Below, one piece after another: positions 4,769 to 57,538 of a DNA stretch of 57,759 bases. The notes under the pieces are model-generated. The model was not told where the DNA came from. It worked only from the letters and a program-made list of their open reading frames with translations, and did not search any database. The translations under genes were made by a program, and so were the position numbers. Position 1 is the first letter of the stretch, and each line of letters begins with the position of its first letter. The stretch spans positions 1 through 57,759 of the forward strand of contig JANLWK010000222.1 in the NCBI GenBank assembly GCA_031364505.1, in the 5' to 3' direction. The DNA is from Candidatus Eiseniibacteriota bacterium (GTDB lineage: Bacteria > Eisenbacteria > RBG-16-71-46).

Positions 4769-5350
4769 ATGATGAAGCGCCTGATCCCCCTGTTCCTGCT
4801 CGTCGCCATCGGGCTGCCGATTGCCGGGCCGGCGTTCGCTCGCCGCGTCGTCGTTCGAGGCGGCGTCGGCCGCAAGCGCACCGTGGTCGTCGTCCACCGC
4901 GGCTGGCCGGTCCGCCGCTCGCTTCGCGCGGTCTACGTCCACCCGGTGCGGGTGGCGCCCCGGGTCACGGTCCTCCGCTACGGCCGGCCCCTGATGTTCA
5001 CGTCCGCCCTGATCGCCGTCGACGCCCGCCCCGCGGCCGACCGCATCGCGTGGGAGGACGCCGAAACCCTGTCGAAGAACGAGGACTGGACGGAGTTCAC
5101 GCTCAATTGCGACGCTCGCGGAAAGAAGCTCTGGCTCGACATCACGGCGGGCAGGATCCAGTTCGACTGGGCCGAGATCGTGTTCGAGAGCGGTGATGCG
5201 CGGGTCGTGGACTTCGCCGAGAAGACGCACGGCGAGGGACTCTACTCGCTGCTCGATTTCGCCGACGGGCGCAAGGTGGACCACGTCCGCGTGGTGGCGC
5301 GCGCCAAGTCGGAGACGGCCCGCGTCGCCCTGCGCATGGAGAAGGAATAG
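4769..5350 (+). CDS. hypothetical secreted protein
   Basis: ATG 4769 is 7 nt after AAAGGAG. Signal peptide MMKRLIPLFLLVAIGLPIAGPAFA. No confident family assignment. Confidence 0.65.
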   Translation: MMKRLIPLFLLVAIGLPIAGPAFARRVVVRGGVGRKRTVVVVHRGWPVRRSLRAVYVHPVRVAPRVTVLRYGRPLMFTSALIAVDARPAADRIAWEDAETLSKNEDWTEFTLNCDARGKKLWLDITAGRIQFDWAEIVFESGDARVVDFAEKTHGEGLYSLLDFADGRKVDHVRVVARAKSETARVALRMEKE

Positions 5351-5391
5351 CGGCCCGACCGCGGCTTAGGGCCTTGGGAGACCCAACGACG

Positions 5392-13005: not shown

Positions 13006-13058
13006 CGCCGTCCCAGGGCATCAAGCCTGGAGGCGGAGGCCACCTCGAGGAGGTCACC

Positions 13059-25367: not shown

Positions 25368-25402
25368 TGCCGAACGCGCGCCCGCTGAGGTAGATTGCAC
25401 CG

Positions 25403-30117: not shown

Positions 30118-30270
30118 ATCTACGCCGCGTCGGACGCCCCCTGTCTCATCAAGAGATCGTAAGTCTGCGGGCATGCGGCTATAATGAGGCGTCGGTGCCG
30201 CCTCTGGGACGTCGGTGCGGGCCGGCCCTACGCGCGTCAGGCGCACCTTGCCCAGCATCCCGGAGAGCCG

Positions 30271-33200: not shown

Positions 33201-34794
33201 AGCGCTGTGCCTGATGTCGGCATTCGACCATGCCCGCGTTCCGAACGCGGATCAGCTCGGTCTCCAGTTCGGCGCGGGATCGTTCTCCATCGCCGCGTGG
33301 CTCAACGTCGGCGCCAGCACCGCCGGGCCGCGTACCATCGTCGAGAAGCGCGTGCCGCTCGCGGGCTCGTCGACGGGGCAGTCGCTCGGTTGGGCGCTCT
33401 ATCTCACCGGGAACCAGAGTCACTTGGAGATCGGCACGGGCGGCGCGCCGCAGGTCGTGACGGGCCCCGATGTGCCGGCCGACACGTGGACGCATCTCGC
33501 CGTGTCGATCGACCGGGTCGCGCACGAGGGCCGCTGGTACCTGGATGGCAGCCCGATCGCCGCGTTCGACTTCGCGCCCATCGCGGGCAACGTGTCGAGC
33601 GGCGGCGACCTCTATATGGGGAGTGTGAGCCCGGCGTTCGGGACCGGGGCGGCGTTCCAGGGGTGCATTGGCGATCTCGAACTGTTCGCGGCGCCGATGT
33701 CGCCGGCGGCCGCGGCGAAGGCCGCCACGACGGGTCCGATCACCTGGTGCCCCGAATACGCCGTGATGCCGCAGGTCACGTCCATCTGCCAGTCGCAGAC
33801 GACCGCACAGGTTTGCTTCAACATCTGCAACAACACCGGCGTGCCGCGGATCTATCACTGGTCACTCGCGGGCCTTCCCGCGGGCCCCGGCTGCACCCTG
33901 GCCGGTCCGACGCTGTTCGTCCCGGCCTCGGGCGCCGTCACCGTTCCCGCCGGCGGTTGTTCACCGCCCATCTGCGTCACGATCACGCGGCCGGCCGGGC
34001 TCACCGCGCAGAACGCCACCGCGTGCTTCGCGCTCACGTTCATCAACGACGCGACCGGAGCGTGCCGTTCGAAGACGGGCACGCTGCGCGCGGACAACAC
34101 CTGCTGGTGCCTGACCCCGATCCCCGCCGGCGTCGTCTCCGTGCCGGCCGGCGCCGGGGGTGCGACGATCGGCATCGGCGTTCACGCGCCGTGCGACCCG
34201 CCCGCGCTCCTGGCGTATCGGATCAGCGCCGTGTGGCTCGACCCCGACCACGAGGACCCACTGGCGCTGAGCCTCGACGGCCTGCAGCCGGGCACGCCGG
34301 TGACGGGACTCCTGAACTCGGCACGCGGCGGCGAGCAGATGATCCACGTGACCGCGACCCTGCCGAACGGCTACGACTTCGCGACGAACTACGAAGTCGT
34401 GGTCGAGGCCGACGTCGACGGCAATGGCTTGGACGAGCGGTTGTGCGGCACCGTCGTCACCGCGGCGACGTACGACAGCACCGAACGTGTCGGCGTGAAT
34501 GCGGACGCGCCGATGGATCAGGCGGTCCGACTGCTGACGAACCCCAATCCGTTCATCAGCGGAACGACGATCGGGCTCGTGATGCCGCGCGCCGAAGCAA
34601 CCACGCTCGGCGTCTACGACCTGAGCGGACGTCTCGTGCGCACGCTCCAGCGCGGGCCGCTCACCGCGGGCAGCCATCGATTCGAGTGGAACGGTCGCGA
34701 CGACTCGGGACGCCGCACGCCGGCGGGCGTCTACTTCGTGAGCTTCGACGGCCCGAGCCATCACGTGAAGGCAAAACTCACCAAGCTGCGGTGA
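30271..34794 (+). CDS. 1507-aa secreted surface protein: SBBP beta-propeller repeats, SdrD-B/Cna-B-like domain, LamG-like domain, FlgD-Ig/T9SS-type C-terminal sorting domain
   Basis: Signal peptide after ATG 30271. Many repeats of WSTYYGG...D.A..VA.D..GN.Y..G.T.S..FP. YLDSNRNGVQDVGEAALPGW...DGSGNYCF. LamG-like WTHLAVSID...WYLDGS. C-terminal NPNPF...YDLSGRLVRTL...GVYFV. Confidence 0.85.
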   Translation: MQRPRTHFRLLVAACAVTLFALAMRATTAAATESSVEVMAGVTGLTAAVVTPTDAVSRATIEGWVDQLRTGWTPNLGQIGDASGRPCPNVLFATTVGATRVLVTTTGLSHYFFAREDEGDGADEEAERIAGRDGRSHEPLEREARWNRLDVTLAGASIRGDHVRLEEPLAEQGSTSYYLAHCPAGVRDLPSYGRITFSDVYPGIDWVVRSVPGDGVHQDFVVHPGADAARIRLEYAGASAIDVSDDQRTLRIRTPLGEVKEGALRCTQADGATSVGARFRVDGHAVSVVLDAYDHAKPLVIDPPLVWSTYYGGGSFDGPRAIVCDNVNDVVYVVGYTNSTNLPVMNPGGGTYFEGVAPAGQDAFIWKFSQAGVRLWATYYGGTGVEFLADGAVDAAGNFYAAGYTVSTDLPTYNLAGAYFQGANGGNADAFLLKFDASGARQWATYYGGKGADQVDALTTDASGRLYACGMTTSSTPPLVNPGGAYFQPAPNSVVEALLLRFSAADSLEWATFFGGTSYDDATGIAVSGNKLYVTGFTQSPASFPVLNPGGGAYFQGTFQGNVDAFLSRFTLAGALTWSTFYGAAGQEYGDQVAVDANGNVFIMGDTDSPAFPTLNPGGSAYYQASPAGSSDLYIVKFDSSNVRLWGTCYGGTNLENTGGSDRPLALDAQGNVYVTGQTASSDLPVLNPGGGSFYQATPGGQRDSFLGQFKNSGSMLWSTYLASNGGDFGTGVAIGNGGCLFATGESSGTNNFVTVNPGPGTWYQPANAGGDDGYITRFCTPPSSCCLDFTCVPVFSQSQCTAMGGTAFYPNQPCSTISCTILCKICGTKYLDSNRNGVQDVGEAALPGWTIQLLYPNGTLFASATTDGSGNYCFNDIPCGPWKVNEAMQPAWVQTAPSPAVHTLNLPTGATQNGVNFGNYSCGTPLNCLLAPPRLAAWWAFDFDPGATSTVDVAHLNPARNVAQLQLDATSAQSPGALCLMSAFDHARVPNADQLGLQFGAGSFSIAAWLNVGASTAGPRTIVEKRVPLAGSSTGQSLGWALYLTGNQSHLEIGTGGAPQVVTGPDVPADTWTHLAVSIDRVAHEGRWYLDGSPIAAFDFAPIAGNVSSGGDLYMGSVSPAFGTGAAFQGCIGDLELFAAPMSPAAAAKAATTGPITWCPEYAVMPQVTSICQSQTTAQVCFNICNNTGVPRIYHWSLAGLPAGPGCTLAGPTLFVPASGAVTVPAGGCSPPICVTITRPAGLTAQNATACFALTFINDATGACRSKTGTLRADNTCWCLTPIPAGVVSVPAGAGGATIGIGVHAPCDPPALLAYRISAVWLDPDHEDPLALSLDGLQPGTPVTGLLNSARGGEQMIHVTATLPNGYDFATNYEVVVEADVDGNGLDERLCGTVVTAATYDSTERVGVNADAPMDQAVRLLTNPNPFISGTTIGLVMPRAEATTLGVYDLSGRLVRTLQRGPLTAGSHRFEWNGRDDSGRRTPAGVYFVSFDGPSHHVKAKLTKLR

Positions 34795-44851: not shown

Positions 44852-46336
44852 TCAGCGCACCGATGGATGCGTCGCCGTCGAGTCGGTGCCGTCGAGCGGG
44901 ACGAACCGCAGCGCGGGGTAGGTGATCGTCCGGCCGGACACGTCCTGTCCGCGCAGGAAGTCCTTGATCACCGGGACGGCGGTGTCGTTCTGGAACAGCG
45001 TCTGTTCGTGGCCCGCGTTCGCGACGACGAGGTGCGTCGCGTTGGGCATGCCCCACGCTAGCTCGTCACCCTGGCTGGGCGGTGTGTTGAAGTCGAGGTC
45101 GCCGCTGACGATCAGCGTGCGCACCGGTGACACGAGCGGGGCGCGAAACGCATCGCCGAGGTCGGGCACCGGCCATCGGTCGCCGGCGGGGAACGGGAAG
45201 TTGACGACGTCAGCGAACCGGCTCGTACGCGCCTGGTCCTCGATCAGCGCGAGCCGGCCCGCGGTCGTCCCCGAGGCGACGTCCATGGATTCGGCCATGC
45301 CGTGCGTGCCGTATGGATTGCGTGCCCGCTTGCGCATGAACCACGCGAGCACGGACGGATCCCCGTGGTCGAGGCTCCACAGCAGGCGCGGGAACACGAC
45401 GAGGTCCGTCGCGTCGCCCACGTCGAAGCGCATGATCATGCGCAGCCCAAAGCCGCCGACCGGGATGCGCAGCGTGTCGCGGCCGCTCGGGGCCGGGACC
45501 GTGAAGACCATCGGGTCGCGATCCAGCCGCGCCACGACGCGATCGAACAGTGCCACGAGATCGGGTACGCGCGCGCCGATGCGCGGGTCGGCGGCCGCCA
45601 GCAGCCCGAGCCTGCGGAGCTGGGTGTCCATCAGCCAGGGCAGCTTCTGCGTCTGGTCCGGCCCTTCGACGCCGCACAGCACCGCGCTCTCGATGCGATC
45701 GCCGTAGCGCCGCAATGTGGCGCACGCCAGGTGTGTTCCGTACGAGAACGCCAGCAGCGAGACGCGCTCGACGCCGAGGGCGGCACGCAGAGCATCGAGA
45801 TCGGTGGCGCTCTCGACACTGTTGTAACCGGCCAGATCGACACCGCGCGCGCGGAATGACGTCAGTGCCCGGCGTCGCGACTCCGCTTCGTGTGCCCTCG
45901 CCGAGTCGGCGCTGAGGAAGAAGAAGCGCGCAGGGGGGCCGTCCCAATCCCAGGTCAACACGGAGTCGTTCGTGCCGCGCTGGTCGATCAGGACCACGTC
46001 CGAGACCTCGAGGAACGGCACCCAGAAATCGAGTGCGTGTGGGTCCTCGGTTACGGCGGTGCTGCCGGGGCCGCCATTCAGGAAGAACAACGGTGCGCGC
46101 GGCGCCGCCGCCGTGGACTTGAGGCGCAGGAAGCCGACGGCGATCGAGCGCGAGCGCGGCTTCGAGCGATTCTCGGGCACCATGAGCCGTCCGGACTCGG
46201 CCTCGATCCGGATGCCCGCATGCGACACCAGCATCTTGTGCTCGAGGGCGAGCGGGTCGGTGGCCGGGACCGCGATCCGCGTGGCCAACGCGATGAACAG
46301 GACGCCGGCGAGCCATGCCACGCGCGCGGGCGTCAT
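44852..46336 (-). CDS. secreted alpha/beta hydrolase (S33 prolyl/tripeptidyl aminopeptidase-like)
   Basis: ATG 46336 overlaps the TetR stop (ATGA). NGGPGS oxyanion motif. Nucleophile AFSYGT. C-terminal GHE. Confidence 0.8.
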   Translation of the reverse strand: MTPARVAWLAGVLFIALATRIAVPATDPLALEHKMLVSHAGIRIEAESGRLMVPENRSKPRSRSIAVGFLRLKSTAAAPRAPLFFLNGGPGSTAVTEDPHALDFWVPFLEVSDVVLIDQRGTNDSVLTWDWDGPPARFFFLSADSARAHEAESRRRALTSFRARGVDLAGYNSVESATDLDALRAALGVERVSLLAFSYGTHLACATLRRYGDRIESAVLCGVEGPDQTQKLPWLMDTQLRRLGLLAAADPRIGARVPDLVALFDRVVARLDRDPMVFTVPAPSGRDTLRIPVGGFGLRMIMRFDVGDATDLVVFPRLLWSLDHGDPSVLAWFMRKRARNPYGTHGMAESMDVASGTTAGRLALIEDQARTSRFADVVNFPFPAGDRWPVPDLGDAFRAPLVSPVRTLIVSGDLDFNTPPSQGDELAWGMPNATHLVVANAGHEQTLFQNDTAVPVIKDFLRGQDVSGRTITYPALRFVPLDGTDSTATHPSVR

Positions 46337-47022
46337 CGGGAGGTCCGCGTCGTTAGGTAGGCGTACAACGTCCGCACCAGCTCCGCGCGCAACGTCGCGC
46401 GGGTCATCGGTGTCACGCGCGAATGCGGGGCCTCGCCGAACAGCAGCTTCTCGCGGGCCACGGCGCACACGAGGTAGACGCCGAACCGGATCGCCGCCTC
46501 GGCGTCATCGTGGGTGATGCGCCGCCGGTGACGGATCAGCGCCTGTACCGCGTGGTCGAACACGCGTCGCCTCCGCCGCACGAGATCGTCCGGCAGCGCC
46601 TCCGGGCGCATGCGCGTGAACAGCGCCAGCGCGCGGATCAGCCAGCGGCGCTCCGTGTACTGGGCGATCAGCACGTCCACGAGCGCGGCGCTGGCGGCGC
46701 CGAGATCGAGTGAATCCCAGTCGACGCGCCCGAGCCGGGCGGCGAACCGCGGCTCCAGGTCCTCGTGATAGCGCTGATACAGGAAGGGAAGCAGCGCCTC
46801 CTTGCTCGCGAAGCGCGCGTAGAAGGAGCCGGTGGGCCGGCCCGCCATCCGCACGATGTCCTGGATCGAGATCTCCTCGAATGGGCGCGTACGCAGCAGC
46901 GCCTCAGTCGCGGCGGCGAAGCGCTCGGCCGTCTCGTGGCCCCGGCGTTGGATGGGGGCCGTGCGGCTCCAGCGTGACGGCGTGGAGGATGAGTGAGGGC
47001 GTGTGGCTGCGGGCGTCGACAT
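46333..47022 (-). CDS. TetR/AcrR-family transcriptional regulator
   Basis: HTH ISIQDIVRMAGRPTGSFYARFASKEALL. The start ATG abuts the palindrome 47022-47044. Confidence 0.85.
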   Translation of the reverse strand: MSTPAATRPHSSSTPSRWSRTAPIQRRGHETAERFAAATEALLRTRPFEEISIQDIVRMAGRPTGSFYARFASKEALLPFLYQRYHEDLEPRFAARLGRVDWDSLDLGAASAALVDVLIAQYTERRWLIRALALFTRMRPEALPDDLVRRRRRVFDHAVQALIRHRRRITHDDAEAAIRFGVYLVCAVAREKLLFGEAPHSRVTPMTRATLRAELVRTLYAYLTTRTSR

Positions 47023-48719: not shown

Positions 48720-50111
48720 ATGCATCCAGAATATCGCTGGATCACCGTGGAAGCCGGCCGGCACCAGTTCCTGCGCCCCGTGTTTTCGTCGCTGGGCGCA
48801 TCGTCCATCCGGATCCTGGTCGAGGATGTCGACCCGGCCGTGCCGTTCGATCGTTCGCAGTGCGGCGGCCTCGTGCTGGCGGTCGGCGAGTGCCAGGGGC
48901 GCGCGGTCGCGGTCGCGTGGAGCGACTTCCGCGTGGACGGCGGTTGCTACAACCACGCGAACGCCTCACGCTTCACCGCCTTCCTCCGCGAGCTGGGGAA
49001 CGACGCCGGCGGTGGACCTCCGCTCTTCTACGTCGTGAACTCTGCCGGCGTCAGCCTGGTCCAGGGACGCACACTGTTCGCCGACGCGTTCCGGCTGTGG
49101 CCCGAGCTGCTCGCGTACTCGCGCGAGCACGTCGTCGTGACGTGCGCGGTCGGCAAGTGCCTCGGACTGGCGACCCTGTTGTTCGGGCTCGGCCACTACC
49201 GCATGGCGGTCATGGGTCGCACGCACATCAACCTCACGGGCCCCGAGGTCCTGGAGCTGTTCTTCGGCGATCGCGTGGACTTCGCGCGCCAGGCCGCGGC
49301 GGAGTCGTCGTACGACCGGAACGATCTCGTGCACGAGCTGGTGCCGTCGGTCGAGGTGGCGTTCGAGCGGTGGAAGGGGTTGCTCGGCCTCGGGCACGAG
49401 TCCACGCCCGTCACCACGGAGCAGGATCCCGTGACGATCGAATTCCTCGGCGCCTTCCTCGATCCGGGGCCACAGGAGCTGGTGCCCGGCTGGTGTTCGA
49501 CGCTGCGGCTGTTCCTGGGTGCGAGGCGGGGCCGGCCGATCGGGATCTTCATCAACCCGCTGCGCCGCCCCGAAAACCTCATCACCGTGCGCACGCTCGA
49601 CAAGTACGCGGCGGGGCTCGACCTGTTCCGGGCGCTGCGTGTCCCGATCGTGAGCGTCCTCGACTCTCCGGGCGTGGATCCGCGCTTCGAGCAGAGCGAC
49701 GCCAACAACATCCGCCGGATGCTCGCGGTGGGCGAGAAGATCATCACGTACCCGCACCCGTTCATGGGAGTGATCGCGGGGCGTTGCTTCGGCGGCGCGT
49801 CCACGCTCTCGATGCCCAAGATCTTCGGCGGCCGCCGATCGCTGGCGCTGCGCGGCAGCACGTTCGGCGTGATGCAGAGCAGCATCATCGACCGGGTGTT
49901 GCAGCAGAGCCCGCGGTTGCGCGAGCTGTGGCGGGCGTCGGAGGCGGAGCAGGTGCCCGGGCTCGAGGATCTCCTGGGGTCGGGCATGCTGGACGCGGTG
50001 ATCGATCTCCACGAGCTGCCCGACGAGATCGATCGCCTGCTGACCGAGGCCGCGGCGTCCGCTTCGCGGCGTGACGGCGCTCCACGCGTGGCCACGAGCG
50101 GTCCACGATGA
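48720..50111 (+). CDS. carboxyltransferase-domain protein (both CT sub-domains fused; acyl-CoA carboxylase CT / decarboxylase-like)
   Basis: N-terminal half: ...AWSDFRVDGGCYNHANASRF...VVNSAGVSLVQG...TGPEV. C-terminal half: RPIGIFINP...LDKYAAGLDLFRALRVPIVSVLDSPGVDP...GRCFGGAS. Start is ATG 48720, or TTG 48684 as the alternative. Confidence 0.75.
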   Translation: MHPEYRWITVEAGRHQFLRPVFSSLGASSIRILVEDVDPAVPFDRSQCGGLVLAVGECQGRAVAVAWSDFRVDGGCYNHANASRFTAFLRELGNDAGGGPPLFYVVNSAGVSLVQGRTLFADAFRLWPELLAYSREHVVVTCAVGKCLGLATLLFGLGHYRMAVMGRTHINLTGPEVLELFFGDRVDFARQAAAESSYDRNDLVHELVPSVEVAFERWKGLLGLGHESTPVTTEQDPVTIEFLGAFLDPGPQELVPGWCSTLRLFLGARRGRPIGIFINPLRRPENLITVRTLDKYAAGLDLFRALRVPIVSVLDSPGVDPRFEQSDANNIRRMLAVGEKIITYPHPFMGVIAGRCFGGASTLSMPKIFGGRRSLALRGSTFGVMQSSIIDRVLQQSPRLRELWRASEAEQVPGLEDLLGSGMLDAVIDLHELPDEIDRLLTEAAASASRRDGAPRVATSGPR

Positions 50112-51100
50112 GAGCCGCGATCGCGGGGACCGGCTTCTACGTCCCGGGCCCGCCGATCACGAACGCCGAACTGATCGAGCGCTACCGGCTCCGGATCAGG
50201 CCGTCGTTCGCGACGCGGAGCATCGGAGTCGAGACGCGCCACTTCGCAGGACCAGGGCAGGCCACGAGCGACCTGGCCGCCGAAGCCGCGGCGCGCGCGC
50301 TCGATGCGAGCGGGGTTCCCGGCACGTCGATCCGCCGCATCATCCTCGCCACGGTCTCCGGCGACTACCCGACGCCGGCGACGGCGTGCGTCGTCCAGCG
50401 CAAGCTGGGACTTCGAGGATGCGCCGCCATCGACCTCGTCGGCGCCTGTTCCGGCTTCCTGCAGGCGCTCGATCTCGGCGCCCGGTGCGTCGCGACGGGA
50501 GAGGGCCCGGTCCTCGTGATCGGGGCCGACGTGCGTTCGCGCCAGCTGAATGTGACCGACCTGCGCACGCTGTTCCTGTACGGCGACGGGGCCGGTGCGG
50601 TCGTCCTCGTGCCGTCGCGGGGCGACGAGGGGCTGCATCACTCGATCCTGTTCGCCGACGGCGCGGGTGCGGAGGCCGTGTACATCCCGGCGGGCGGCTC
50701 GCGCGAACCGCTCACCGCCGACGGAATCGCGCGACATCGTGGCACCATCACGATGCCCGATGGACCGCTCGTCGCCGATGCCGCGCGGGCGGGGTTCCGC
50801 GCGCTGACGAATCGGCTGGTCGCCGAAACGGGCGTGACGCTCGGCGAGATCGGGTGCTTCTGCATGCACCAGCCCAACCTGTTCCTGCTGCGTCGCGTCC
50901 TCGAGGACCTCGGCATCCCCGAAACCAAATCCTGGATCAACTTCCCGCGCTACGCGAACACGACGTCGGCCTCGGTCGCGATCGCGCTGGCCGAAGCGGC
51001 GCACGCGGGGCACATCGCACCGGGCAGCTGGCTCTGCCTGGGCGCGGTCGGTGCGGGATTCGCGGGCGCGATCCAACTCATTCGCTGGGGGAAACCCTGA
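50108..51100 (+). CDS. KASIII (FabH-like 3-oxoacyl synthase III / thiolase-fold condensing enzyme)
   Basis: ATGA overlap with the upstream stop. Cys (VGACSGF), His (CMHQPN), Asn (YANTTSAS). 330 aa. Confidence 0.88.
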   Translation: MRAAIAGTGFYVPGPPITNAELIERYRLRIRPSFATRSIGVETRHFAGPGQATSDLAAEAAARALDASGVPGTSIRRIILATVSGDYPTPATACVVQRKLGLRGCAAIDLVGACSGFLQALDLGARCVATGEGPVLVIGADVRSRQLNVTDLRTLFLYGDGAGAVVLVPSRGDEGLHHSILFADGAGAEAVYIPAGGSREPLTADGIARHRGTITMPDGPLVADAARAGFRALTNRLVAETGVTLGEIGCFCMHQPNLFLLRRVLEDLGIPETKSWINFPRYANTTSASVAIALAEAAHAGHIAPGSWLCLGAVGAGFAGAIQLIRWGKP

Positions 51101-51105
51101 TCCTC

Positions 51106-51801
51106 GTGACGGGGGCGAGCCGCGGGATCGGCTACGCGTGTGCCCGGGCGCTGCTCGAGCGCACGGACGCGAACATCATGCTGACGGGGCGCGACCCGGA
51201 ACGACTGTGCGCCGCGCGTGAAGCACTGCCGCCGGAACAGCGGGAGCGCGTGCTCACTCGCGCCCGCGACCAGGCGAATCCCCGCGCGGTCGACGCGCTG
51301 ATCGCGGAACTGTCCGCGCCCGGCCTGTCGGTGGAAGGTGCCATCCTCACCGTGGGCGAGAACCCGCTCTATGAGGAGGGGCCGCGCCGCCTGCACGCGC
51401 TGGACGCCGGCACGATCGAGACGACGGTGCGCACGAACTGCACGGAGTTGTTGAGGTTGTCCGCCGCGCTACTCGGCCGGTTCCGCGAGCAGCGCTCGGG
51501 TGTGCTGATCTGGATCGGCTCCCAGGCGGCGCGCTACGGCATTCCGGGTGCCGCCCTCTACGGGGCGACGAAGGCATTCCTGTCCGGGCTCGCGTGCGCC
51601 GCGGATCACGAGTACGCCGGCCGCGGCGTTCGCGTGCACCTGCTGCACCCCGGCGTCGTGCGCACGCCGCGGACGCACGATGTCGCCGACGCGTTCGCCG
51701 CGCGCCACGGGCTCGTCGTGGCCGAGGCGCCCGACGTGGCGCGCCGCGTCGTGGACGTGTTCCTCACCGGCACCCCCGCGGGCGTGGAGCAGGACATATG
51801 A
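51106..51801 (+). CDS. short-chain dehydrogenase/reductase (SDR)
   Basis: TGASRGIG cofactor motif; YGATK catalytic motif. GTG 51106 is the nearest canonical in-frame start upstream of the cofactor motif, but it cuts the beta1 strand. An in-frame CTG at 51097 (CTGA overlap with the KASIII stop) would give MILVTGASRGIG. Confidence 0.8.
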   Translation: MTGASRGIGYACARALLERTDANIMLTGRDPERLCAAREALPPEQRERVLTRARDQANPRAVDALIAELSAPGLSVEGAILTVGENPLYEEGPRRLHALDAGTIETTVRTNCTELLRLSAALLGRFREQRSGVLIWIGSQAARYGIPGAALYGATKAFLSGLACAADHEYAGRGVRVHLLHPGVVRTPRTHDVADAFAARHGLVVAEAPDVARRVVDVFLTGTPAGVEQDI

Positions 51802-52577
51802 TCGCCCTCGACGTGTTGTGGTGGGTCGGCTGGATGTACTTCACGGCGTGGGTCGCGCTGCCGCTCGCGCTGAGCCTCGTCGCGGGCCCCGTGATCGGCG
51901 GCCTCGCCTGGGCCCTGCTCGCCCCCTGGTCCGCGCTGGCCGGGATGGCGCTCGCGCACCGGCTGCTGCCTTCGCCCGCCGCCGGAACGTTCCGCATGTT
52001 CTCCGACCGCGACAGCATCCGCTGGGCGCTCAAGGGCTGGCCGCCCGCGGTGTACCTCGCGGTATTCCAGCCCGTGTTCTTCCTGAGCCCCGCCTTCCAG
52101 CGCGTGGTCCTGCGCGCGTTCGGCGCGCGGCTCGGGTCCGGCGCGCAGGTGACCACGCGCACCAGCGTGCGCGAACCCCACCTGCTCGAGCTGGGCCGCG
52201 ATTGTATGGTGGGCGAGTTCGTCCACCTCGTGTGCTCGTACCAGCCGAAGCCGCGCACGCTGGTGGTGGGACGAATACGCATCGGCGACGAGGCGATGAT
52301 CGGCGCCTACGGCGTGCTGGGCGCCGGCTGCCGCGTCGGCGCGCGGAGCATCCTGGAATTCCGCGTGGCCCTCGGCGCCGACGCCTCGATCGGCGAGGAC
52401 GCGCGAATCGGCTCCGGGACGACCATCTACAATCGCGCGCGCATCGGCAACGGTGTCCGCATCGGCAAGCAATGCTCGATCGCGATCGGCGCGGTGGTCC
52501 CCGACGGCGCGCGGCTGCCCGACGGTACCGTGTGGCCGGCAGGCCCCGACGCATCGGGTGGGGTGGGGACGACGTGA
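51798..52577 (+). CDS. membrane-anchored hexapeptide-repeat (LbH) acyl/acetyltransferase
   Basis: ATGA overlap. Two to three N-terminal TM helices. Then tandem [LIV]-G-x4 hexapeptides (IGDEAMIGAYGVLGAGCRVGARSIL...IGEDARIGSGTTI...IGNGVRIGKQCSI). Confidence 0.8.
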   Translation: MIALDVLWWVGWMYFTAWVALPLALSLVAGPVIGGLAWALLAPWSALAGMALAHRLLPSPAAGTFRMFSDRDSIRWALKGWPPAVYLAVFQPVFFLSPAFQRVVLRAFGARLGSGAQVTTRTSVREPHLLELGRDCMVGEFVHLVCSYQPKPRTLVVGRIRIGDEAMIGAYGVLGAGCRVGARSILEFRVALGADASIGEDARIGSGTTIYNRARIGNGVRIGKQCSIAIGAVVPDGARLPDGTVWPAGPDASGGVGTT

Positions 52578-54238
52578 TCGCAAATTTCATGTTCGAGCGG
52601 AGCTACCGGCGCTTCGTCGCGGCGCGCGAGCAGCCGCTGCGCGCGCAGGCCGCCCGGCTGCGTGCCATCCTCGGCCAGGCGCGGGACACCACGGTCGGCC
52701 GGCGCGCGGACTTCGCCCGCATCCGGAGTATCCGCGACGACGCGGCGATGATCGGCGCGTTCCGCCGGGAGGTACCGGTGCGCACGTGCGCCGAGATGCG
52801 CGACGATCTCGACGCGGTCTATGCCGGCGACTGGCGACGAATGTGCCCGAGCCGGCCGGTATTCTTCGCCATGACTGCCGGATCCACGGGGCACTACAAG
52901 TACGTCCCGGTCACCGCGGAGTTCCGGCGCGAGTTGCGCGAGGCGGCGCTGGTCTTCAGCGGCGCGATGCAGGCGTGCTATCCCGCCGTTCGCCGGCTGC
53001 GATCTCAGTTTCTCGTGGGATCCGCGGAAGGCGGCCGATCGCCGGCAGGAATCCCGCAAGGGTTCGCGTCGGGATTCAACTACAAGAACTTCCCGTGGCT
53101 CGTGCGCCGCCGGTTCACGGTGCCGTACTGGGTGTTCACCATCGAGGACACCGAGGAGCGCAATTACGCCGCCGGGCGCATCCTCGTATCCGAGCGACGG
53201 CTGGGCGCGCTCGTTGCCATCTCGCCCGTCAACCTGATCAACCTGCGCCAGGCGCTCGACCGCAACGCCGCGCGACTCTGCGACGACATCGCCGCGGGCA
53301 CGCTCGACGTGCGCGGGGCCTCGGCCGTGCGCGGGAGTTTCCACACGCGGCCCGACCCCGCGCTCGCCGGGGCGCTGCGCGACGCCTGTCGCGGTGGCGG
53401 AAGGCTGCCCACGCGCCTGCTGTTTCCGGGGCTCGAGGTGCTCGTGTGCTGGCAGGGAGGCAACATGGGCTATTCCCTCGACGCGCTGGACGCCGCCTTC
53501 GAGATGCGCCACCGCCTCGAGTTCCCGGTGTCGGCGAGCGAGGGCGTGTTCGCGATCCCGCACCGCGCCGACCGGCCGGGTGGCGTGCTGGCGATCACGT
53601 CGCACTTCCTTGAGTTCCTGCCCGACTCGGGCGGGAGCGCCGCCACCGGCGAGGCGTTGCGCGCCGACCAGCTCGAGCCCGGCGGCGAGTACCGGATCGT
53701 GGTGACGAACGGCGGCGGGCTCCATCGTTACGACATGGAGGACATCGTGCGCGTCACCGAGATCGTCGGCCGCACACCGGCCATCGAGTTCGTGGCGAAG
53801 GCGGGCCGTCGCACTTCCGTGAGCAACGAGCGACTCACCGAGCTCGACGTGACGCACGCCATGCTTGCGGCCAGCCGGGCGTGCGGACGCTGGTTCGATG
53901 CGTTCCTGTTCGTCCCCTGCACCGACCGCCGCTACCGTGTCGTGCTGGACGGCGCCGAGCTGCGCGGCGCCGGGGGAGGCGAACACGGGTTGCCGGAACT
54001 CGCGGCGGAGTTGGAGCGTCAGCTGCGAGCCGCGAGCAAGGGTTACGACTTCGAGCGCGACGACGCGCTGCTCGAGCCGCTCGAGGTCGTGGTGACCGCG
54101 CCGGGCGAGCTGGTCGAGCACCTGCGCCGTGCACAGGGTGCGCCGGCGATCCCGAGTGCCCAGGACAAGCCCGTGCGGCTCACCGCGGAGTTCGACCTGC
54201 ACCGGCGCCTCGCGATCCGGAGGGCGCATGCGGCTTAG
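52574..54238 (+). CDS. GH3-family (PF03321-like) adenylating acyl-acid amido synthetase homologue
   Basis: GTGA overlap. The three GH3/ANL nucleotide motifs are recognisable: TAGSTGHYKYVP (SSGTT-like), SASEG (YxxSE-like), HRYDMEDIV (YRxGD-like). 554 aa. Confidence 0.78.
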   Translation: MIANFMFERSYRRFVAAREQPLRAQAARLRAILGQARDTTVGRRADFARIRSIRDDAAMIGAFRREVPVRTCAEMRDDLDAVYAGDWRRMCPSRPVFFAMTAGSTGHYKYVPVTAEFRRELREAALVFSGAMQACYPAVRRLRSQFLVGSAEGGRSPAGIPQGFASGFNYKNFPWLVRRRFTVPYWVFTIEDTEERNYAAGRILVSERRLGALVAISPVNLINLRQALDRNAARLCDDIAAGTLDVRGASAVRGSFHTRPDPALAGALRDACRGGGRLPTRLLFPGLEVLVCWQGGNMGYSLDALDAAFEMRHRLEFPVSASEGVFAIPHRADRPGGVLAITSHFLEFLPDSGGSAATGEALRADQLEPGGEYRIVVTNGGGLHRYDMEDIVRVTEIVGRTPAIEFVAKAGRRTSVSNERLTELDVTHAMLAASRACGRWFDAFLFVPCTDRRYRVVLDGAELRGAGGGEHGLPELAAELERQLRAASKGYDFERDDALLEPLEVVVTAPGELVEHLRRAQGAPAIPSAQDKPVRLTAEFDLHRRLAIRRAHAA

Positions 54239-55253
54239 CGTGCCGGGCGTGCGCGTCGCGGACGTGGAATCGTGTGACTTCGCGATGATCCCGAGCATGG
54301 ACACGCGATCGCTGCTGCGGGCCGCGCGCCCGGAGGACTGGGAACGTTATCTCGAGTCACCGGTGTCGCGCCGGCTGCTGGCCGAGCTGGGCGTCGAGCG
54401 GCGCTACATGACGCACGTGCCCGGCCGCTTGCCCGACCCGGCGCGCCTCACCGCGCTCGACCTCGGGATCTCCGCCGTCGAGCGACTCCGCGCGCGGCGA
54501 CCGGACCTGCTCGCGCACCTCGATGCGATCGTGTTCGTGAGCACGTCGAATCCGAGCCCGTGCAATTGCCAGGCCTCGCTGCTCGCGGAACGGCTCGGCC
54601 TGGCCGCGTCGTGTTACGACATCAAGGCGGGCTGCAGCAGCGGGGTGCTGGGGATCGCCCAGGCGGCGCTCCTCGTGGCGGCGGGATGCGAGCGCGTGCT
54701 CGTGGTCATGGCCGAGAACCTGTCGCAGCTCATGCCCGCCGACGACCTGCGCGCGCTGCTCACGGTGGGCGATGGCGCCGCATGCGCCGTGGTCGAGCGG
54801 CACGAGGGACCCGGGTTCGTGAGCGTCCTGCACGAGACCGATTCGCGCTTCGCCGGCACGATGGCCGTGCGCGCGCCGTTTCCGCCCGCCGTCCCGGACG
54901 CGCGGTACGTGTACGAATTCGCCGACACGCAGGCCGTGCGTGATGCCCTGCACGAACGTTGGCGCGACGTGTTCGGCGAGAGCATGCGGGCCGCCGGCAT
55001 GCGGCCCGGCGATCTGGCGCACGCATTCTTGCACCAGACCCACGCCGCCCAGGTCGACGACCTCGTGCGAGACGTCGGCCTCGATCCCGCGCGCGTCGTG
55101 CGCGTGGTGCACGAGCACGGCAACATGGGCTCGCCGACCTTCGCGGTGGCGATGTCGCGGGCGTTCGCGCGCATCGAGCCCGGCCAGCGTTTCCTGATGC
55201 AGGCGGTGGGAGGCGGCCTGAGCTCCTGCGCGATCGTCGCGGAGCACCGGTGA
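54228..55253 (+). CDS. second, divergent KASIII/thiolase-fold condensing enzyme
   Basis: ATG 54228 follows GGAGGG and overlaps the GH3 3' end by 11 nt. Cys (KAGCSSG), His (FLHQTHA), Asn (HGNMGSP). Confidence 0.8.
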   Translation: MRLSVPGVRVADVESCDFAMIPSMDTRSLLRAARPEDWERYLESPVSRRLLAELGVERRYMTHVPGRLPDPARLTALDLGISAVERLRARRPDLLAHLDAIVFVSTSNPSPCNCQASLLAERLGLAASCYDIKAGCSSGVLGIAQAALLVAAGCERVLVVMAENLSQLMPADDLRALLTVGDGAACAVVERHEGPGFVSVLHETDSRFAGTMAVRAPFPPAVPDARYVYEFADTQAVRDALHERWRDVFGESMRAAGMRPGDLAHAFLHQTHAAQVDDLVRDVGLDPARVVRVVHEHGNMGSPTFAVAMSRAFARIEPGQRFLMQAVGGGLSSCAIVAEHR

Positions 55254-57538
55254 CACGACCGGCGGGACCGGGCAGGACATCGCTGGCGCTCGCGATCGTG
55301 CGCGGGCGCGGCTGGATCGGCGCCGCGTGGGTGCTGGTGGCGGCGCTGCTGCTGCCGCAGGCGCGGCGTGCTCCCGACGTGCTCGACGTGGGCGCCCACA
55401 TCCGCGGCAGCGAATCCGCCGCCGTCGAGCAACTGCTCGCCGGCCCGCTCGCCTCGTCGTATGCGCGTTACGCGGTCCTCGTGGTGGGAGGGATCCCGTC
55501 GCCGAACACGCCCGCGGGCACCGCCGCACTCGAGCGTATCGTGTGGCCGCTGCGGGATGCGCCGGCGGTGGCCGGCGTCTTCTCGTATCTCGACTACCCG
55601 GACACGCTGTTCGTGTCACCGCGCGGGCGGGGGACGCTCGTGCTCGTCGGGTTCGCGTCCGACCAGGGCTCGCCCGATCGCCTCGTGCCACCGTTGCGCA
55701 GCCTCACCGCCCACCTGGCCGACAGCCTGCGCGCCGACTTCCCCTCCGTGACCCTGCGATGGACCGGGGAGACCGCGCTGAACGTCGACCTGCGCCGCGC
55801 GAGCGGCCTGGACGTCGGCGCGGCCGAGCGCCGGGCGCTGCCGCTCACAGCGCTGTTCCTCCTGCTGGCGTTCGGCGCGCTGGTCGCGGCATTGCTCCCG
55901 GTGCTCGCCGGTCCGCTCGCGATCGCGATCACGCTGGGCGCCGCGGTGATGGTGGCCCTCGTGTGGCCGCTCTCGATCCTGTTGCAGAGCGTCGTGGCGA
56001 TGCTCGGGCTCGGGCTCGGCATCGACTACGCGCTGCTGATGGTGAGCCGGTTCCGCGAGGGGCTCGCCGGTGGCGAAACGCCGGAGGCCGCGGCGGAAAC
56101 GGCGGCGCGTCACGCGGGTCACACCATCCTGCTCTCGGCCGCGGCCGTCGCCCTCGGATTCGCCGTCCTGCTGAGCGTGCCTCTCAACGAGATGCGCGCG
56201 ATCGCCGTGGGCGGCCTGCTGGTGGTCGTCGTGTCGGCGCTACTCGCCACCACGCTGCTCCCCGGCGTGCTGGCGGCACTCGGGCACCGCGTGGACTGGG
56301 GCCGGCTGGGATGGCGGCCGGCCGCCCGCTCGGGCGCGGAGGGATGGCGGCGATGGGGGCGCTGGATCACCGCGCGCCCGTGGATCGCGCTCGTCGCGGG
56401 CGTCCTTCCGCTCGCGCTGCTCGCCGCGCAGGCGCCGCGAATGCGGACCGGGCTGCCGCGCGGCGACTGGCTGCCGGCGTCCATGGAGTCGGTACGGGCG
56501 CTCGACGACCTGGCCTCGATGGGGCGCCGCGGCGTGGTGCAGGCCGTACGCGTGGTCATCGAGTTCCCGGATGCCGGCCCGGAGCGGCGCATCGCGGACT
56601 GGCGAGCGCTGGCGCGTTTCGACGCGGCGCTACGCGCCGATCCGAGAGTCGAACGCGTGCGCTCGGTGTTCGCGGTGGCGGAGGCTTCGCACCTCGACTG
56701 GGCCGACATGGTTACGCTGCCGGAGGGGCTCGCCCCGCCGCTCACACGCGGACTCGTCAGCGCGGAGGGCGCGAGCGCTCTGCTCGAGCTGGTGCCGCGC
56801 GACGAGCTGAAGCCCGAGGAGGCGGTCGCGCTGGCGCGCGAGCTTCGCGCGAACGCGGCGCGGCGAATCGGCGTCCCGGGCGCTCGCGTGCGCGTCGGCG
56901 GCCTGCCCGCCTTCAACGCCGACTACCAGGACGCGGTCGCCGGACGCTTCTGGCAGATTGTCGGGTTGATCGTCGCAGGCACGCTGCTCGCGCTGTTCCT
57001 CGGGTTCCGCTCGGTGCTCGTGCCGCTCAAGGCGGTCGTGCTGAACCTGCTCACCGTCGCAGCGACATTCGGGGCGGTGGTGCTGGTGTTCCAGGAGGGC
57101 CACGGGGGCGGCGTCTTCGGTGTGCGCGAGCCGCTCGGGGCCGTGTTCTCGTCGCTGCCCGTGATGGTGTTCGCCATCGTGTTCGGCCTCAGCATGGATT
57201 ACGAGGTGTTCCTGATGACGCGCGTGCGGGAGGGATGGATGGCGGGGGCGGGCAACCGCGAGGCCATCGTGGACGCGCTGGGGACGACCGCGCAGGTGAT
57301 CACCAGCGCGGCCGCCATCATGCTCGTCGTGTTCGCCGCGTTCACGCTCGGCGACTTCCTGATCACGAAGATGCTCGGCTTTGCCCTGGCCGTCGCCGTC
57401 CTGCTCGACGCGACGATCGTACGCATGGTGATCGGCCCCGCGCTGCTGCAGCTCGCGGGCCGCTGGAACTGGTGGCCGGGTGCGGGCCGGAGACGGCCCG
57501 AAACGCCCGGCGACACCGCCCCTACATCATCGGTTTGA
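55250..57538 (+). CDS. MMPL-family (RND superfamily) membrane transporter
   Basis: GTGA overlap. Two 6-TM modules, each carrying the MMPL signature (GIDYALLMVSRFRE; GLSMDYEVFLMTRVRE). Two periplasmic loops. Confidence 0.88.
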   Translation: MTRPAGPGRTSLALAIVRGRGWIGAAWVLVAALLLPQARRAPDVLDVGAHIRGSESAAVEQLLAGPLASSYARYAVLVVGGIPSPNTPAGTAALERIVWPLRDAPAVAGVFSYLDYPDTLFVSPRGRGTLVLVGFASDQGSPDRLVPPLRSLTAHLADSLRADFPSVTLRWTGETALNVDLRRASGLDVGAAERRALPLTALFLLLAFGALVAALLPVLAGPLAIAITLGAAVMVALVWPLSILLQSVVAMLGLGLGIDYALLMVSRFREGLAGGETPEAAAETAARHAGHTILLSAAAVALGFAVLLSVPLNEMRAIAVGGLLVVVVSALLATTLLPGVLAALGHRVDWGRLGWRPAARSGAEGWRRWGRWITARPWIALVAGVLPLALLAAQAPRMRTGLPRGDWLPASMESVRALDDLASMGRRGVVQAVRVVIEFPDAGPERRIADWRALARFDAALRADPRVERVRSVFAVAEASHLDWADMVTLPEGLAPPLTRGLVSAEGASALLELVPRDELKPEEAVALARELRANAARRIGVPGARVRVGGLPAFNADYQDAVAGRFWQIVGLIVAGTLLALFLGFRSVLVPLKAVVLNLLTVAATFGAVVLVFQEGHGGGVFGVREPLGAVFSSLPVMVFAIVFGLSMDYEVFLMTRVREGWMAGAGNREAIVDALGTTAQVITSAAAIMLVVFAAFTLGDFLITKMLGFALAVAVLLDATIVRMVIGPALLQLAGRWNWWPGAGRRRPETPGDTAPTSSV

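What the first reader, a model, noticed from the sequence alone, without database searches (positions are those of the whole stretch)
52574..54238. Bacterial GH3-family enzyme embedded in a fatty-acid-type operon
GH3 proteins are best known as plant acyl-acid amido synthetases (JAR1, PBS3, IAA-amido synthetases). They have an ANL-like adenylating fold. Bacterial homologues are, to my knowledge, functionally uncharacterised.

This ORF keeps the three nucleotide-binding motifs: TAGSTGHYKYVP, SASEG and HRYDMEDIV. It is translationally coupled on both sides, with a GTGA overlap upstream and an 11-nt overlap downstream, to an acyltransferase and a condensing enzyme. That genomic context gives a concrete substrate hypothesis: the product of the neighbouring KASIII/SDR enzymes.
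Basis: partly seen in the sequence, partly recalled or inferred. Interest (0 to 1): 0.62.

Follow-up and report, generated by a model that had tools for sequence, protein, structure and literature searches.

The report
GH3 ligase in conserved lipid cassette
The gene is a real bacterial relative of the plant GH3 hormone-conjugating enzymes, sitting inside a conserved, mobile seven-gene cassette that probably builds and exports an unknown amide-linked lipid; one bacterial GH3 enzyme has already been characterised, so this is a new variant, not a first.

Summary
ORF 52574-54238 (+) encodes a 554-aa GH3-family adenylating enzyme (Pfam PF03321 4.5e-40, GH3_M 1e-17). Its AlphaFold model matches only plant GH3 structures at the top. 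The three nucleotide motifs and a C-terminal lysine are invariant in relatives, and both gene overlaps are as described.

The gene lies in a seven-gene operon: carboxyltransferase, FabH-like KASIII, SDR, membrane hexapeptide acyltransferase, GH3, divergent KASIII, MMPL exporter. The same order recurs in all 19 Gemmatimonadota and unclassified-MAG loci (complete wherever the contig reaches), with unrelated flanks. The five-enzyme core (CT, two KASIII, SDR, GH3) recurs, rearranged, in Gammaproteobacteria.

The claim that bacterial GH3s are uncharacterised is outdated. OlsH (2025) makes N-acyl-ornithine, and the Legionella legionellol cluster (2016) has the same five-enzyme core. This protein is not an OlsH equivalog (69 bits against a 620-bit cut-off).

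Best reading (about 0.5): GH3 adenylates a cassette-made hydroxy or branched fatty acid and joins it to an amine. The hexapeptide acyltransferase then modifies the product and MMPL exports it. Substrates and product are inferred, not shown. Verdict: new variant of a known kind, moderate interest.

The parts
48720..50111 (+). Divergent carboxyltransferase (acyl-CoA carboxylase beta-subunit-like), first gene of the cassette. Alternative starts are TTG 48684 and GTG 48696. No biotin carboxylase or BCCP gene lies in the cassette.
   Evidence: Pfam PF01039 3.6e-16. PDB best match is PccB, 6e-14. GC3 is 0.90 and its stop forms an ATGA overlap with the next gene. Conserved in 16 of 16 loci long enough to show it.
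50108..51100 (+). KAS1: FabH-like beta-ketoacyl synthase III with a Cys114-His254-Asn284 triad.
   Evidence: NCBIfam PRK09352 1.2e-70. PDB FabH 8.5e-47. The triad is invariant in 15 relatives, including Legionella lol8.
51097..51801 (+). Short-chain dehydrogenase/reductase (ketoreductase type). The start is either CTG 51097 or GTG 51106.
   Evidence: Pfam adh_short 2.5e-29. All 19 homologues have ATG or GTG where the window has CTG. The C at 51097 is seen in contigs of three sediment metagenomes.
51798..52577 (+). Membrane-anchored left-handed beta-helix (hexapeptide) acyltransferase: two N-terminal transmembrane helices followed by an LbH domain. Translationally coupled to the GH3 gene.
   Evidence: Pfam Hexapep 1.7e-12. 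NCBIfam best hit is TIGR02353, the Pls/PosA NRPS terminal domain, 4.5e-18. PDB profile best hits are LpxD 4.5e-19 and LpxA 4e-16. AlphaFold model pLDDT 78, helices 2-29 and 31-56. Alignment.
52574..54238 (+). GH3-family acyl-acid amido synthetase (the finding), 554 aa.
54228..55253 (+). KAS2: divergent KASIII-like enzyme with a Cys136-His269-Asn299 triad and a subfamily signature D-x-K-x-G-C-S.
   Evidence: Pfam ACP_syn_III and ACP_syn_III_C. PDB FabH 5.7e-24, covering only residues 77-337. Triad and Lys133 are invariant in 16 relatives, including Legionella lol4.
55250..57538 (+). MMPL-family RND lipid exporter, last gene of the cassette. Its GTG start forms a GTGA overlap with the KAS2 stop.
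   Evidence: Pfam MMPL 4.8e-70. NCBIfam MmpL3 domain 250 bits, below the 1400-bit cut-off. Conserved in 14 of 14 Gemmatimonadota-type loci long enough to show it.

Best explanation
The ORF encodes a catalytically competent GH3-type, ATP-dependent acyl-acid amido synthetase. It belongs to a small, distinct bacterial GH3 subfamily (about 8-10 clusters at 50% identity).

The gene works inside a self-contained, horizontally mobile 8.8-kb operon: carboxyltransferase, FabH-like KASIII, SDR, membrane hexapeptide acyltransferase, GH3, second KASIII, MMPL exporter.

Proposed mechanism:
1. The carboxyltransferase supplies a malonyl or alkylmalonyl extender unit.
2. The two KASIII enzymes and the SDR build a 3-hydroxy, possibly 2-branched, fatty acid.
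3. GH3 adenylates its free carboxylate. Like OlsH and the plant GH3s, it then passes the acyl group to an amine (an amino acid or a related amine), giving an N-acyl amino-lipid.
4. The membrane LpxD/LpxA/Pls-like acyltransferase adds a further acyl group to the 3-hydroxyl or to a head-group amine.
5. MMPL moves the product to the envelope or out of the cell.

Shown here: family membership, intact motifs, the fold, operon structure and conserved linkage. Inferred: every substrate, the order of steps and the product.
For: **GH3 identity and competence**
- Pfam 4.5e-40 and 1e-17.
- AlphaFold model pLDDT 87.5, pTM 0.86.
- The 30 best Foldseek PDB hits are all plant GH3 structures (E down to 4e-29, TM 0.78 to AtGH3.15). 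PaaK-type ligases follow.
- The P-loop, SASEG, RYxxxD and C-terminal QxKP residues are invariant across 27 relatives.

**Linkage**
- The same seven genes in the same order occur in all 19 loci from Gemmatimonadota and unclassified MAGs, complete wherever the contig is long enough.
- Flanking genes share nothing between loci.
- The five-enzyme core (CT, two KASIII, SDR, GH3) recurs, rearranged, in gammaproteobacterial loci (LbH too in L021/L022) and in metagenome contigs.
- All strong GH3 hits in the window's own phylum sit in the cassette. Two congeners lack it.

**Chemistry precedent**
- OlsH, a bacterial GH3, joins free fatty acids, including 3-hydroxypalmitate, to ornithine with ATP and Mg2+, without CoA or ACP (PMC12493201).
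- OlsH is the only NCBIfam model this protein hits.

**Accessory genes next to GH3 in variant clusters**
- They include an isoprenylcysteine-carboxyl-methyltransferase-like enzyme (L049, L052) and a weakly ATP-grasp-like 468-aa protein (L051, twice).
- Both fit a product with a lipid-anchored free carboxylate, as in an N-acyl amino acid. This is inference.

**Other parts**
- The LbH domain is closest to LpxD and LpxA, which transfer 3-hydroxyacyl chains.
- Both KASIII enzymes keep the Cys-His-Asn triad.
Against: - No substrate or product is known, and no expression data exist. Only DNA runs hold the sequence.
- The cassette has no thioesterase to free the acid that GH3 needs, no ACP, and no gene that makes or marks a particular amine.
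- The protein is far from OlsH: 69 bits against a 620-bit cut-off, matching only residues 16-200.
- No OlsI-like or OlsG-like neighbour was found.
- In the only experimentally touched cluster with the same core (Legionella lol), inactivating the GH3 gene did not change the measured product (PMC5640695).
- The carboxyltransferase is very divergent. It may not be a carboxylase at all.
Confidence: 0.5

Rival explanations
1. Legionellol-type surfactant pathway. The five-enzyme core (carboxyltransferase, two KASIII, SDR, GH3) builds a secreted polyketide-like amino-polyol surfactant, as in Legionella pneumophila. GH3 performs a late or dispensable step, for example N-acylating the scaffold amine with a hydroxy fatty acid, rather than making a membrane lipoamino acid.
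For: - The published lol1-lol10 table lists GH3, a carboxylase, two KASIII enzymes, a reductase and an exporter (PMC5640695).
- I fetched the L. pneumophila locus. ORF sizes match the table.
- The matches are one-to-one but distant: lol1 to GH3 at 25-27% identity (E 6e-30 to 1e-41); lol4 to KAS2 type (3e-26) rather than KAS1 (1.6e-5); lol8 to KAS1 type (2e-40); lol7 to SDR; lol3 to CT (5e-6 to 3e-12).
- lol4 shares the KAS2 signature D-x-K-x-G-C-S.
- Acylated legionellols carry C12/C14 hydroxy fatty acids.
Against: - Similarity to the lol proteins is no higher than to generic FabH or other bacterial GH3s.
- The cassette lacks the lol acyl-CoA dehydrogenase, both ANL ligases, the ACP and the MFS pump. 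It has an LbH acyltransferase and MMPL instead.
- Legionellol chemistry is itself unexplained by its genes.
Confidence: 0.17
2. Mycolate/Ole-like head-to-head condensation. GH3 acts like FadD32: it activates a long fatty acid as acyl-AMP and hands it to a thiol (the KAS2 cysteine, CoA or ACP). The carboxyltransferase makes a 2-carboxyacyl-CoA, a KASIII joins the two chains, and the SDR reduces the 3-keto group. The LbH enzyme transfers the 2-alkyl-3-hydroxy acid to a carrier and MMPL exports it.
For: - The parts list parallels AccD4, FadD32, Pks13, CmrA and MmpL3.
- The second-best NCBIfam hit of the SDR is mycolate reductase (84 bits). The best hit of the exporter is the MmpL3 domain.
- GH3 and KAS2 are translationally coupled by an 11-nt overlap.
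- L051 has two GH3s and two KASIII enzymes.
Against: - All of these hits are far below the family cut-offs (84 against 380 bits; 250 against 1400 bits).
- The carboxyltransferase is not close to AccD4, AccD5 or AccD6.
- No GH3 enzyme is known to use a thiol acceptor. OlsH needs neither CoA nor ACP.
- GH3 and KAS2 are not adjacent in the gammaproteobacterial versions.
- Both KASIII enzymes resemble FabH, not OleA. OleA matches cover only the C-terminal 80 residues.
Confidence: 0.13
3. Beta-lactone route. GH3 replaces the ANL enzyme OleC/LstC: it adenylates a 3-hydroxy acid made by KASIII and SDR, and the 3-hydroxyl attacks intramolecularly to close a beta-lactone.
For: A KASIII pair, an SDR and an adenylating enzyme is the gene logic of the Ole, lipstatin and nocardiolactone pathways (from established knowledge). 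GH3 has the ANL-like fold.
Against: - The cassette has no OleB-type hydrolase.
- GH3 keeps the residues and architecture of the amide-forming family. Its only characterised bacterial relative makes an amide.
- There is no precedent for a GH3 lactone synthetase.
Confidence: 0.06
4. The GH3 acts on a small non-lipid acid (an auxin-like or aromatic acid), and its place in the operon is incidental.
For: Plant GH3s conjugate IAA, JA and benzoates. The best structural matches are those enzymes.
Against: The linkage to the same lipid genes across three phyla, with sharp cassette boundaries and translational coupling, argues against an incidental neighbour.
Confidence: 0.03

Closest known systems
OlsH (Sinac_1599) of Singulisphaera acidiphila, the GH3-like lyso-ornithine-lipid synthetase (PMC12493201; NCBIfam NF052613)
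   Same: It is a bacterial GH3-family enzyme with the three nucleotide motifs, encoded in a lipid operon beside an acyltransferase. It makes an amide from a free (3-hydroxy) fatty acid and an amine using ATP and Mg2+, without CoA or ACP. It is the only NCBIfam model this protein hits.
   Different: - The match is 69 bits against an equivalog cut-off of 620, over residues 16-200 only.
- The OlsH operon is GH3, N-methyltransferase OlsG and alpha/beta-hydrolase OlsI. It has no KASIII, SDR, carboxyltransferase or exporter.
- Here the acyltransferase is a membrane hexapeptide protein, and no OlsI/OlsG-like gene is nearby.
- The amine specificity here is unknown.
Legionella pneumophila legionellol (lol1-lol10, lpg2225-lpg2234) surfactant cluster (PMC5640695)
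   Same: It has the same five-enzyme core plus an exporter: GH3 (lol1), carboxyltransferase (lol3), two different KASIII enzymes (lol4 matching KAS2, lol8 matching KAS1) and an SDR (lol7). The pairings are reciprocal-type and lol4 shares the D-x-K-x-G-C-S motif.
   Different: - Identity is only 18-34%.
- lol also has an acyl-CoA dehydrogenase, two ANL ligases, an ACP and an MFS pump, and it lacks the hexapeptide acyltransferase and MMPL.
- The lol1 knock-out left legionellol unchanged, so the role of GH3 is unknown there too.
Plant GH3 acyl-acid amido synthetases (AtGH3.15, GH3.5/6, JAR1, PBS3, OsGH3.8)
   Same: Same fold (TM up to 0.78), the same three nucleotide-binding motifs, the same C-terminal lysine motif, and a two-domain ANL-like architecture.
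   Different: Sequence identity is 17-22%. The plant enzymes are stand-alone and act on hormones, not on lipid-operon products.
OleABCD / lipstatin LstABCD beta-lactone and olefin pathways; mycolate condensation system (AccD4, FadD32, Pks13, CmrA, MmpL3)
   Same: The gene logic is similar: condensing enzyme(s), a ketoreductase and an adenylating enzyme, with or without a carboxyltransferase and an MmpL exporter.
   Different: The adenylating enzyme here is GH3, not an AMP-binding (PF00501) ANL enzyme. The KASIII enzymes resemble FabH rather than OleA or Pks13. All specific family hits fall far below their cut-offs.

Membership tests
GH3 family (Pfam PF03321 / PF23571) | Significant match to the GH3 N-terminal and central domain models | tested here: met
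   PF03321 at 138 bits (cut-off 23.6, E 4.5e-40). PF23571 at 64 bits (cut-off 23.6).
GH3 family (Pfam PF03321 / PF23571) | Three nucleotide-binding motifs (P-loop S/T-G-S/T-x-G-x-x-K, SSE-type, YRxGD-type) and a C-terminal catalytic lysine | tested here: met
   The motifs are TAGSTGHYK (101-109), SASEG (320-324), RYDMED (385-390) and QDKP (530-533). They align to the plant motifs and are invariant in 27 relatives.
GH3 family (Pfam PF03321 / PF23571) | Two-domain ANL-like GH3 fold | tested here: met
   AlphaFold model pLDDT 87.5. The top 30 Foldseek hits are all plant GH3 structures, E down to 4e-29.
GH3 family (Pfam PF03321 / PF23571) | ATP-dependent adenylation of a carboxylic acid followed by amide formation | not testable with these tools
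   This needs an enzyme assay.
OlsH lyso-ornithine lipid synthetase (NCBIfam NF052613 equivalog) | Score at or above the equivalog cut-off of 620 bits over the full length | tested here: not met
   69.3 bits, residues 16-200 only.
OlsH lyso-ornithine lipid synthetase (NCBIfam NF052613 equivalog) | Operon with the OlsI alpha/beta-hydrolase O-acyltransferase (and the OlsG methyltransferase) | tested here: not met
   The cassette has no alpha/beta hydrolase. The nearby hydrolase at 44852-46468 is not conserved with the cassette and hits no Ols model.
OlsH lyso-ornithine lipid synthetase (NCBIfam NF052613 equivalog) | Ornithine as the acceptor | not testable with these tools
   This needs an assay.
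Legionellol (lol) type cluster | Core of GH3, carboxyltransferase, two distinct KASIII enzymes and an SDR, with an exporter | tested here: met
   Composition. Distant one-to-one homology to the L. pneumophila proteins.
Legionellol (lol) type cluster | Acyl-CoA dehydrogenase, two ANL ligases, ACP and MFS pump | tested here: not met
   None of these is present in the cassette, which has essentially no intergenic space.
Ole / Lst beta-lactone pathway | OleA-type condensing enzyme, OleC AMP-binding lactone synthetase and OleB hydrolase | tested here: not met
   The best KAS hits are FabH. OleA structures match only KAS2 residues 253-335 at about 1e-7. The adenylating enzyme is GH3, and there is no OleB in the cassette.
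Mycolate condensation system | Pks13, FadD32, AccD4, CmrA and MmpL3 equivalogs | tested here: not met
   No PKS or FAAL is present. The SDR scores 84 bits against a 380-bit cut-off, and MMPL 250 bits against 1400. The carboxyltransferase is closest to PccB at only 6e-14.

The most novel reading that the evidence does not exclude
The GH3 enzyme does not make an amide here. Instead it plays the FadD32/OleC role in a non-actinobacterial head-to-head condensation pathway. It would hand an acyl-adenylate to a KASIII thiol, or close a beta-lactone. The cassette would then make an exported mycolate-like 2-alkyl-3-hydroxy lipid in Gemmatimonadota and their relatives. That would be the first GH3 with a non-amine acceptor.
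Probability: 0.12. Interest if true: 0.8.

Novelty: new variant of a known kind. Interest (0 to 1): 0.45.

Why it matters
Bacterial GH3 enzymes number in the thousands (3,859 clusters at 50% identity hit this query), but only one, OlsH, has a demonstrated function.

This subfamily comes with a compact, self-contained 8.8-kb cassette. It could be expressed whole to find a new exported lipid of Gemmatimonadota-type soil and sediment bacteria, whose envelope lipids are poorly known.

It may also clarify the Legionella legionellol cluster, which shares the five-enzyme core and whose chemistry and GH3 role have been unexplained since 2016. ATP-driven, CoA-independent amide formation on fatty acids is also of interest for making N-acyl amino acid surfactants.

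Tried and rejected
- **LbH fold search.** Foldseek of the hexapeptide acyltransferase model against the PDB gave no hits at all, probably because the repeats are masked. I used sequence profiles instead.
- **Finding Legionella.** A class-level sample of 400 gammaproteobacterial genomes held no lol-like GH3 context. A second homologue search named no Legionella protein. I reached L. pneumophila through a Legionella outer-membrane protein family and then a family-level GH3 search. Only 13.1 kb of that genome could be fetched, so lol9 and lol10 were not examined.
- **Papers not held.** PMC3194911 (the bbc surfactant locus) and PMC4463453 (OlsG) were unavailable. I could not state the OlsG family and dropped an OlsG/ICMT parallel.
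- **Expression.** Only DNA metagenome runs hold the sequence, so there is no expression evidence.
- **Promoter and terminator scan.** It found nothing inside the operon, which is uninformative.
- **Ols-like neighbours.** None were found.
- **OleA-like and mycolate-like readings.** I considered both and ranked them low because every specific hit is far below its cut-off.
Full report
**1. The observation**

The ORF at 52574-54238 (+) is real. It runs from GTG to TAG and encodes 554 aa. Its third-position GC is 0.89, like its six neighbours (0.87-0.93). The long antisense ORF over the same DNA lacks this signature.

Family evidence:
- Pfam gives the GH3 N-terminal domain at E 4.5e-40 and the GH3 central domain at 1e-17.
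- The best solved-structure sequence match is rice GH3.8 at 2.5e-19.

They align to the plant P-loop, SSE and YRxGD motifs. In an alignment of 27 relatives down to 39% identity, the key residues are invariant: T101-G103-S104-G106-K109, S322-E323, R385-Y386-D390 and the C-terminal Q530-K532-P533.

Both overlaps are as described. There is a GTGA overlap with the upstream stop and an 11-nt overlap with the downstream ATG at 54228. Relatives begin M-I-A-S, which supports the GTG at 52574 over the gene caller's ATG five codons later.

**2. Structure**

An AlphaFold model built on those 27 sequences has mean pLDDT 87.5 and pTM 0.86. Its 30 best PDB matches are all plant GH3 enzymes, with E down to 4e-29 and TM 0.78 to AtGH3.15. 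PaaK-type adenylating ligases come next. The enzyme looks like an intact GH3 acyl-acid amido synthetase.

**3. The operon**

Seven same-strand genes with overlapping or abutting ends run from about 48720 to 57538:
- a divergent carboxyltransferase;
- a FabH-like KASIII (KAS1);
- a short-chain dehydrogenase;
- a hexapeptide acyltransferase with two N-terminal membrane helices;
- GH3;
- a second, divergent KASIII (KAS2);
- an MMPL-family exporter.

Both KASIII enzymes keep the Cys-His-Asn triad in every relative examined. The acyltransferase's beta-helix is closest to LpxD and LpxA among solved structures (4.5e-19 and 4e-16). Its best curated-family hit is the terminal membrane domain of the Pls/PosA poly-amino-acid synthetases (4.5e-18). 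The cassette has no ACP, thioesterase, biotin carboxylase or BCCP gene.

**4. Conservation**

A scan of one genome per prokaryotic species found 24 loci.
- All 19 loci from Gemmatimonadota and from unclassified MAGs of the window's own family hold the same genes in the same order, complete wherever the contig is long enough. GH3 identity is 51-75%.
- The conserved block stops exactly at the carboxyltransferase and the MMPL gene. No flanking ORF of two reference loci has a counterpart in loci of other lineages.

In the window's own phylum (206 species genomes), 10 genomes have a GH3 match. Five are strong full-length matches, all in the window's family, and all sit in the cassette. A sixth same-family genome has the cassette broken by several frame changes. 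Two congeners have no match.

In a quick tree, the window's clade sits inside a strongly supported 13-sequence group (SH-aLRT 97). The other nine sequences in that group are all from Gemmatimonadota. The cassette is therefore accessory and has moved between phyla.

An exhaustive search of 1.84 billion representative proteins shows a clear score gap. About ten clusters score above 297 bits and the next scores 224. This is a small, distinct clade within a superfamily of 3,859 clusters. The sequence is held by freshwater-sediment metagenomes.

**5. Variants**

| Locus | Gene content |
|---|---|
| L021, L022 (gammaproteobacterial MAGs) | KAS2, CT, LbH, SDR, KAS1 and GH3 (39% identity), rearranged; no MMPL |
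| L049 and L023 (one genome, split) | L049: KAS1-SDR-CT-KAS2, an isoprenylcysteine-carboxyl-methyltransferase-like gene, GH3. L023: a second GH3 paired with the LbH gene |
| L052 (metagenome contig) | GH3 followed by the same kind of methyltransferase |
| L051 (metagenome contig) | CT, an MFS pump, two KASIII enzymes, an SDR, and two GH3 paralogues each followed by a 468-aa protein with sub-threshold ATP-grasp similarity |

The invariant core is therefore CT, KAS1, SDR, KAS2 and GH3. The exporter and the enzyme partnered with GH3 vary.

**6. What is already known**

Rivera-Najera et al. (J Biol Chem 2025, PMC12493201) showed the following about OlsH of Singulisphaera acidiphila:
- It forms N-acyl-ornithine from free fatty acids, ATP and Mg2+, without CoA or ACP.
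- Deleting it removes the ornithine lipid.
- OlsI then O-acylates the product.

NCBIfam has an OlsH model. It is the only NCBIfam model this protein hits, but at 69 bits against a 620-bit cut-off, so the protein is not an OlsH equivalog.

Earlier, Johnston et al. (2016, PMC5640695) described the L. pneumophila legionellol cluster. It has GH3, a carboxylase, two KASIII enzymes, a reductase, extra ligases, an ACP and an MFS pump. Knocking out KASIII lpg2228 abolished the surfactant, but knocking out the GH3 did not change it.

I fetched that locus. The ORF sizes match the published table, and the proteins pair one-to-one with the cassette's, though distantly:
- lol1 to GH3: 25-27% identity, E 6e-30 to 1e-41.
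- lol4 to KAS2 type: 3e-26, against 1.6e-5 to KAS1.
- lol8 to KAS1 type: 2e-40.
- lol7 to SDR.
- lol3 to CT: 5e-6 to 3e-12.

lol4 also shares the KAS2-specific D-x-K-x-G-C-S motif around the catalytic cysteine. These similarities are not much stronger than to generic FabH or to other bacterial GH3s. A common origin of the two cores is therefore plausible but not shown.

**7. How it most likely works**

I commit, at about 0.5, to an OlsH-like role.
1. The KASIII, SDR and carboxyltransferase enzymes make a 3-hydroxy, possibly 2-branched, fatty acid.
2. GH3 adenylates its carboxylate and transfers it to an amine, giving an N-acyl amino-lipid.
3. The membrane LpxD/LpxA/Pls-like acyltransferase adds another acyl group.
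4. MMPL exports the product.

Support comes from three things:
- the intact amide-forming family features;
- the OlsH precedent with 3-hydroxy fatty acids;
- the enzymes that sit beside GH3 in variant clusters. These are an ICMT-like carboxyl methyltransferase and a possible ATP-grasp ligase. Both would act on a lipid-anchored free carboxylate such as that of an N-acyl amino acid.

The weak points are real:
- nothing in the cassette releases a free acid;
- no gene points to a particular amine;
- the carboxyltransferase is too divergent to assign;
- the Legionella GH3 knock-out had no reported effect.

**8. Rivals**
- **Legionellol-type surfactant pathway (0.17).** GH3 would do a late N-acylation.
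- **Mycolate/Ole-like head-to-head condensation (0.13).** GH3 would act as the acyl-AMP loader.
- **Beta-lactone synthetase role (0.06).**
- **Incidental small-acid conjugase (0.03).**

The specific family hits behind the mycolate and Ole analogies all fall far below their cut-offs. The KASIII enzymes resemble FabH rather than OleA.

**9. Verdict**

GH3 genes in bacterial lipid operons are common; this scan's own notes list dozens (unchecked). A specialist would therefore not be very surprised. This particular seven-gene cassette, its GH3 subfamily and its product were not described in the literature I could search. It is compact enough to test directly. I rate it a new variant of a known kind, interest 0.45.

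Noticed in passing
window 51097-51108: The SDR gene has CTG at 51097, where all 19 homologues have ATG or GTG as the start (M/V-I-L-V-T-G-A-S). The next in-frame start, GTG 51106, would remove the first Rossmann strand residues. The C is present in contigs from three sediment metagenome runs, so it is not a one-off assembly error. This is either a rare CTG start or a weakened gene.
   Followed up: partly
L051:6914-19096 (JGI metagenome 3300045974): This variant cluster has two GH3 paralogues. Each is followed by a 468-aa protein with no family assignment and only sub-threshold ATP-grasp similarity (E 4e-4 to 1.5e-3). The cluster also holds a CT, an MFS pump, two KASIII enzymes and an SDR.
   Followed up: partly
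L049:9068-9685 (-) and L052:11752-12297 (+): A membrane methyltransferase of the isoprenylcysteine-carboxyl type (NF040696, 1e-12 to 2e-29, below cut-off) sits directly beside GH3 in two gammaproteobacterial-type clusters that have no LbH gene beside GH3.
   Followed up: partly
window 54228-55253; L061:6923-7984: KAS2-type enzymes and Legionella lol4 share an invariant Asp-x-Lys-x-Gly-Cys-Ser motif around the catalytic cysteine. FabH has no lysine at that position. This may mark a separate KASIII subfamily.
   Followed up: partly
L065 (G081:C5:166000-179346): A same-family genome carries the cassette with the carboxyltransferase, LbH and GH3 genes each split over several frames, at a contig end. 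The cause is either decay of the cassette or indel errors in the assembly.
   Followed up: no
L044:8592-11180 and L045:7915-10500: Two unrelated gammaproteobacterial genomes encode 861-862-aa proteins in which a GH3 domain is fused to an N-terminal extension. They sit in operons that lack the cassette genes.
   Followed up: no
L021:11731-12141 and L022:11683-12084: A small ORF (133-136 aa) with no significant family match (only hits far below the cut-offs, E 0.002-0.07) directly follows GH3 in both gammaproteobacterial loci.
   Followed up: no
window 51798: One small contig in run X1 has T instead of A at the first base of the LbH start codon (ATG to TTG, still a start codon). This is a strain variant.
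   Followed up: no
window 30163-34794 (+), 9172-13020 (-), 5197-6936 (+), 25394-28474 (+): The rest of the window holds four large genes with no Pfam-level link to lipid synthesis. They are a 1543-aa surface-type protein (DUF7948, SBBP beta-propeller, LamG, FlgD-Ig), a 1282-aa SNF2 helicase, a HerA-like ATPase, and a Ser/Thr kinase with TPR repeats.
   Followed up: no
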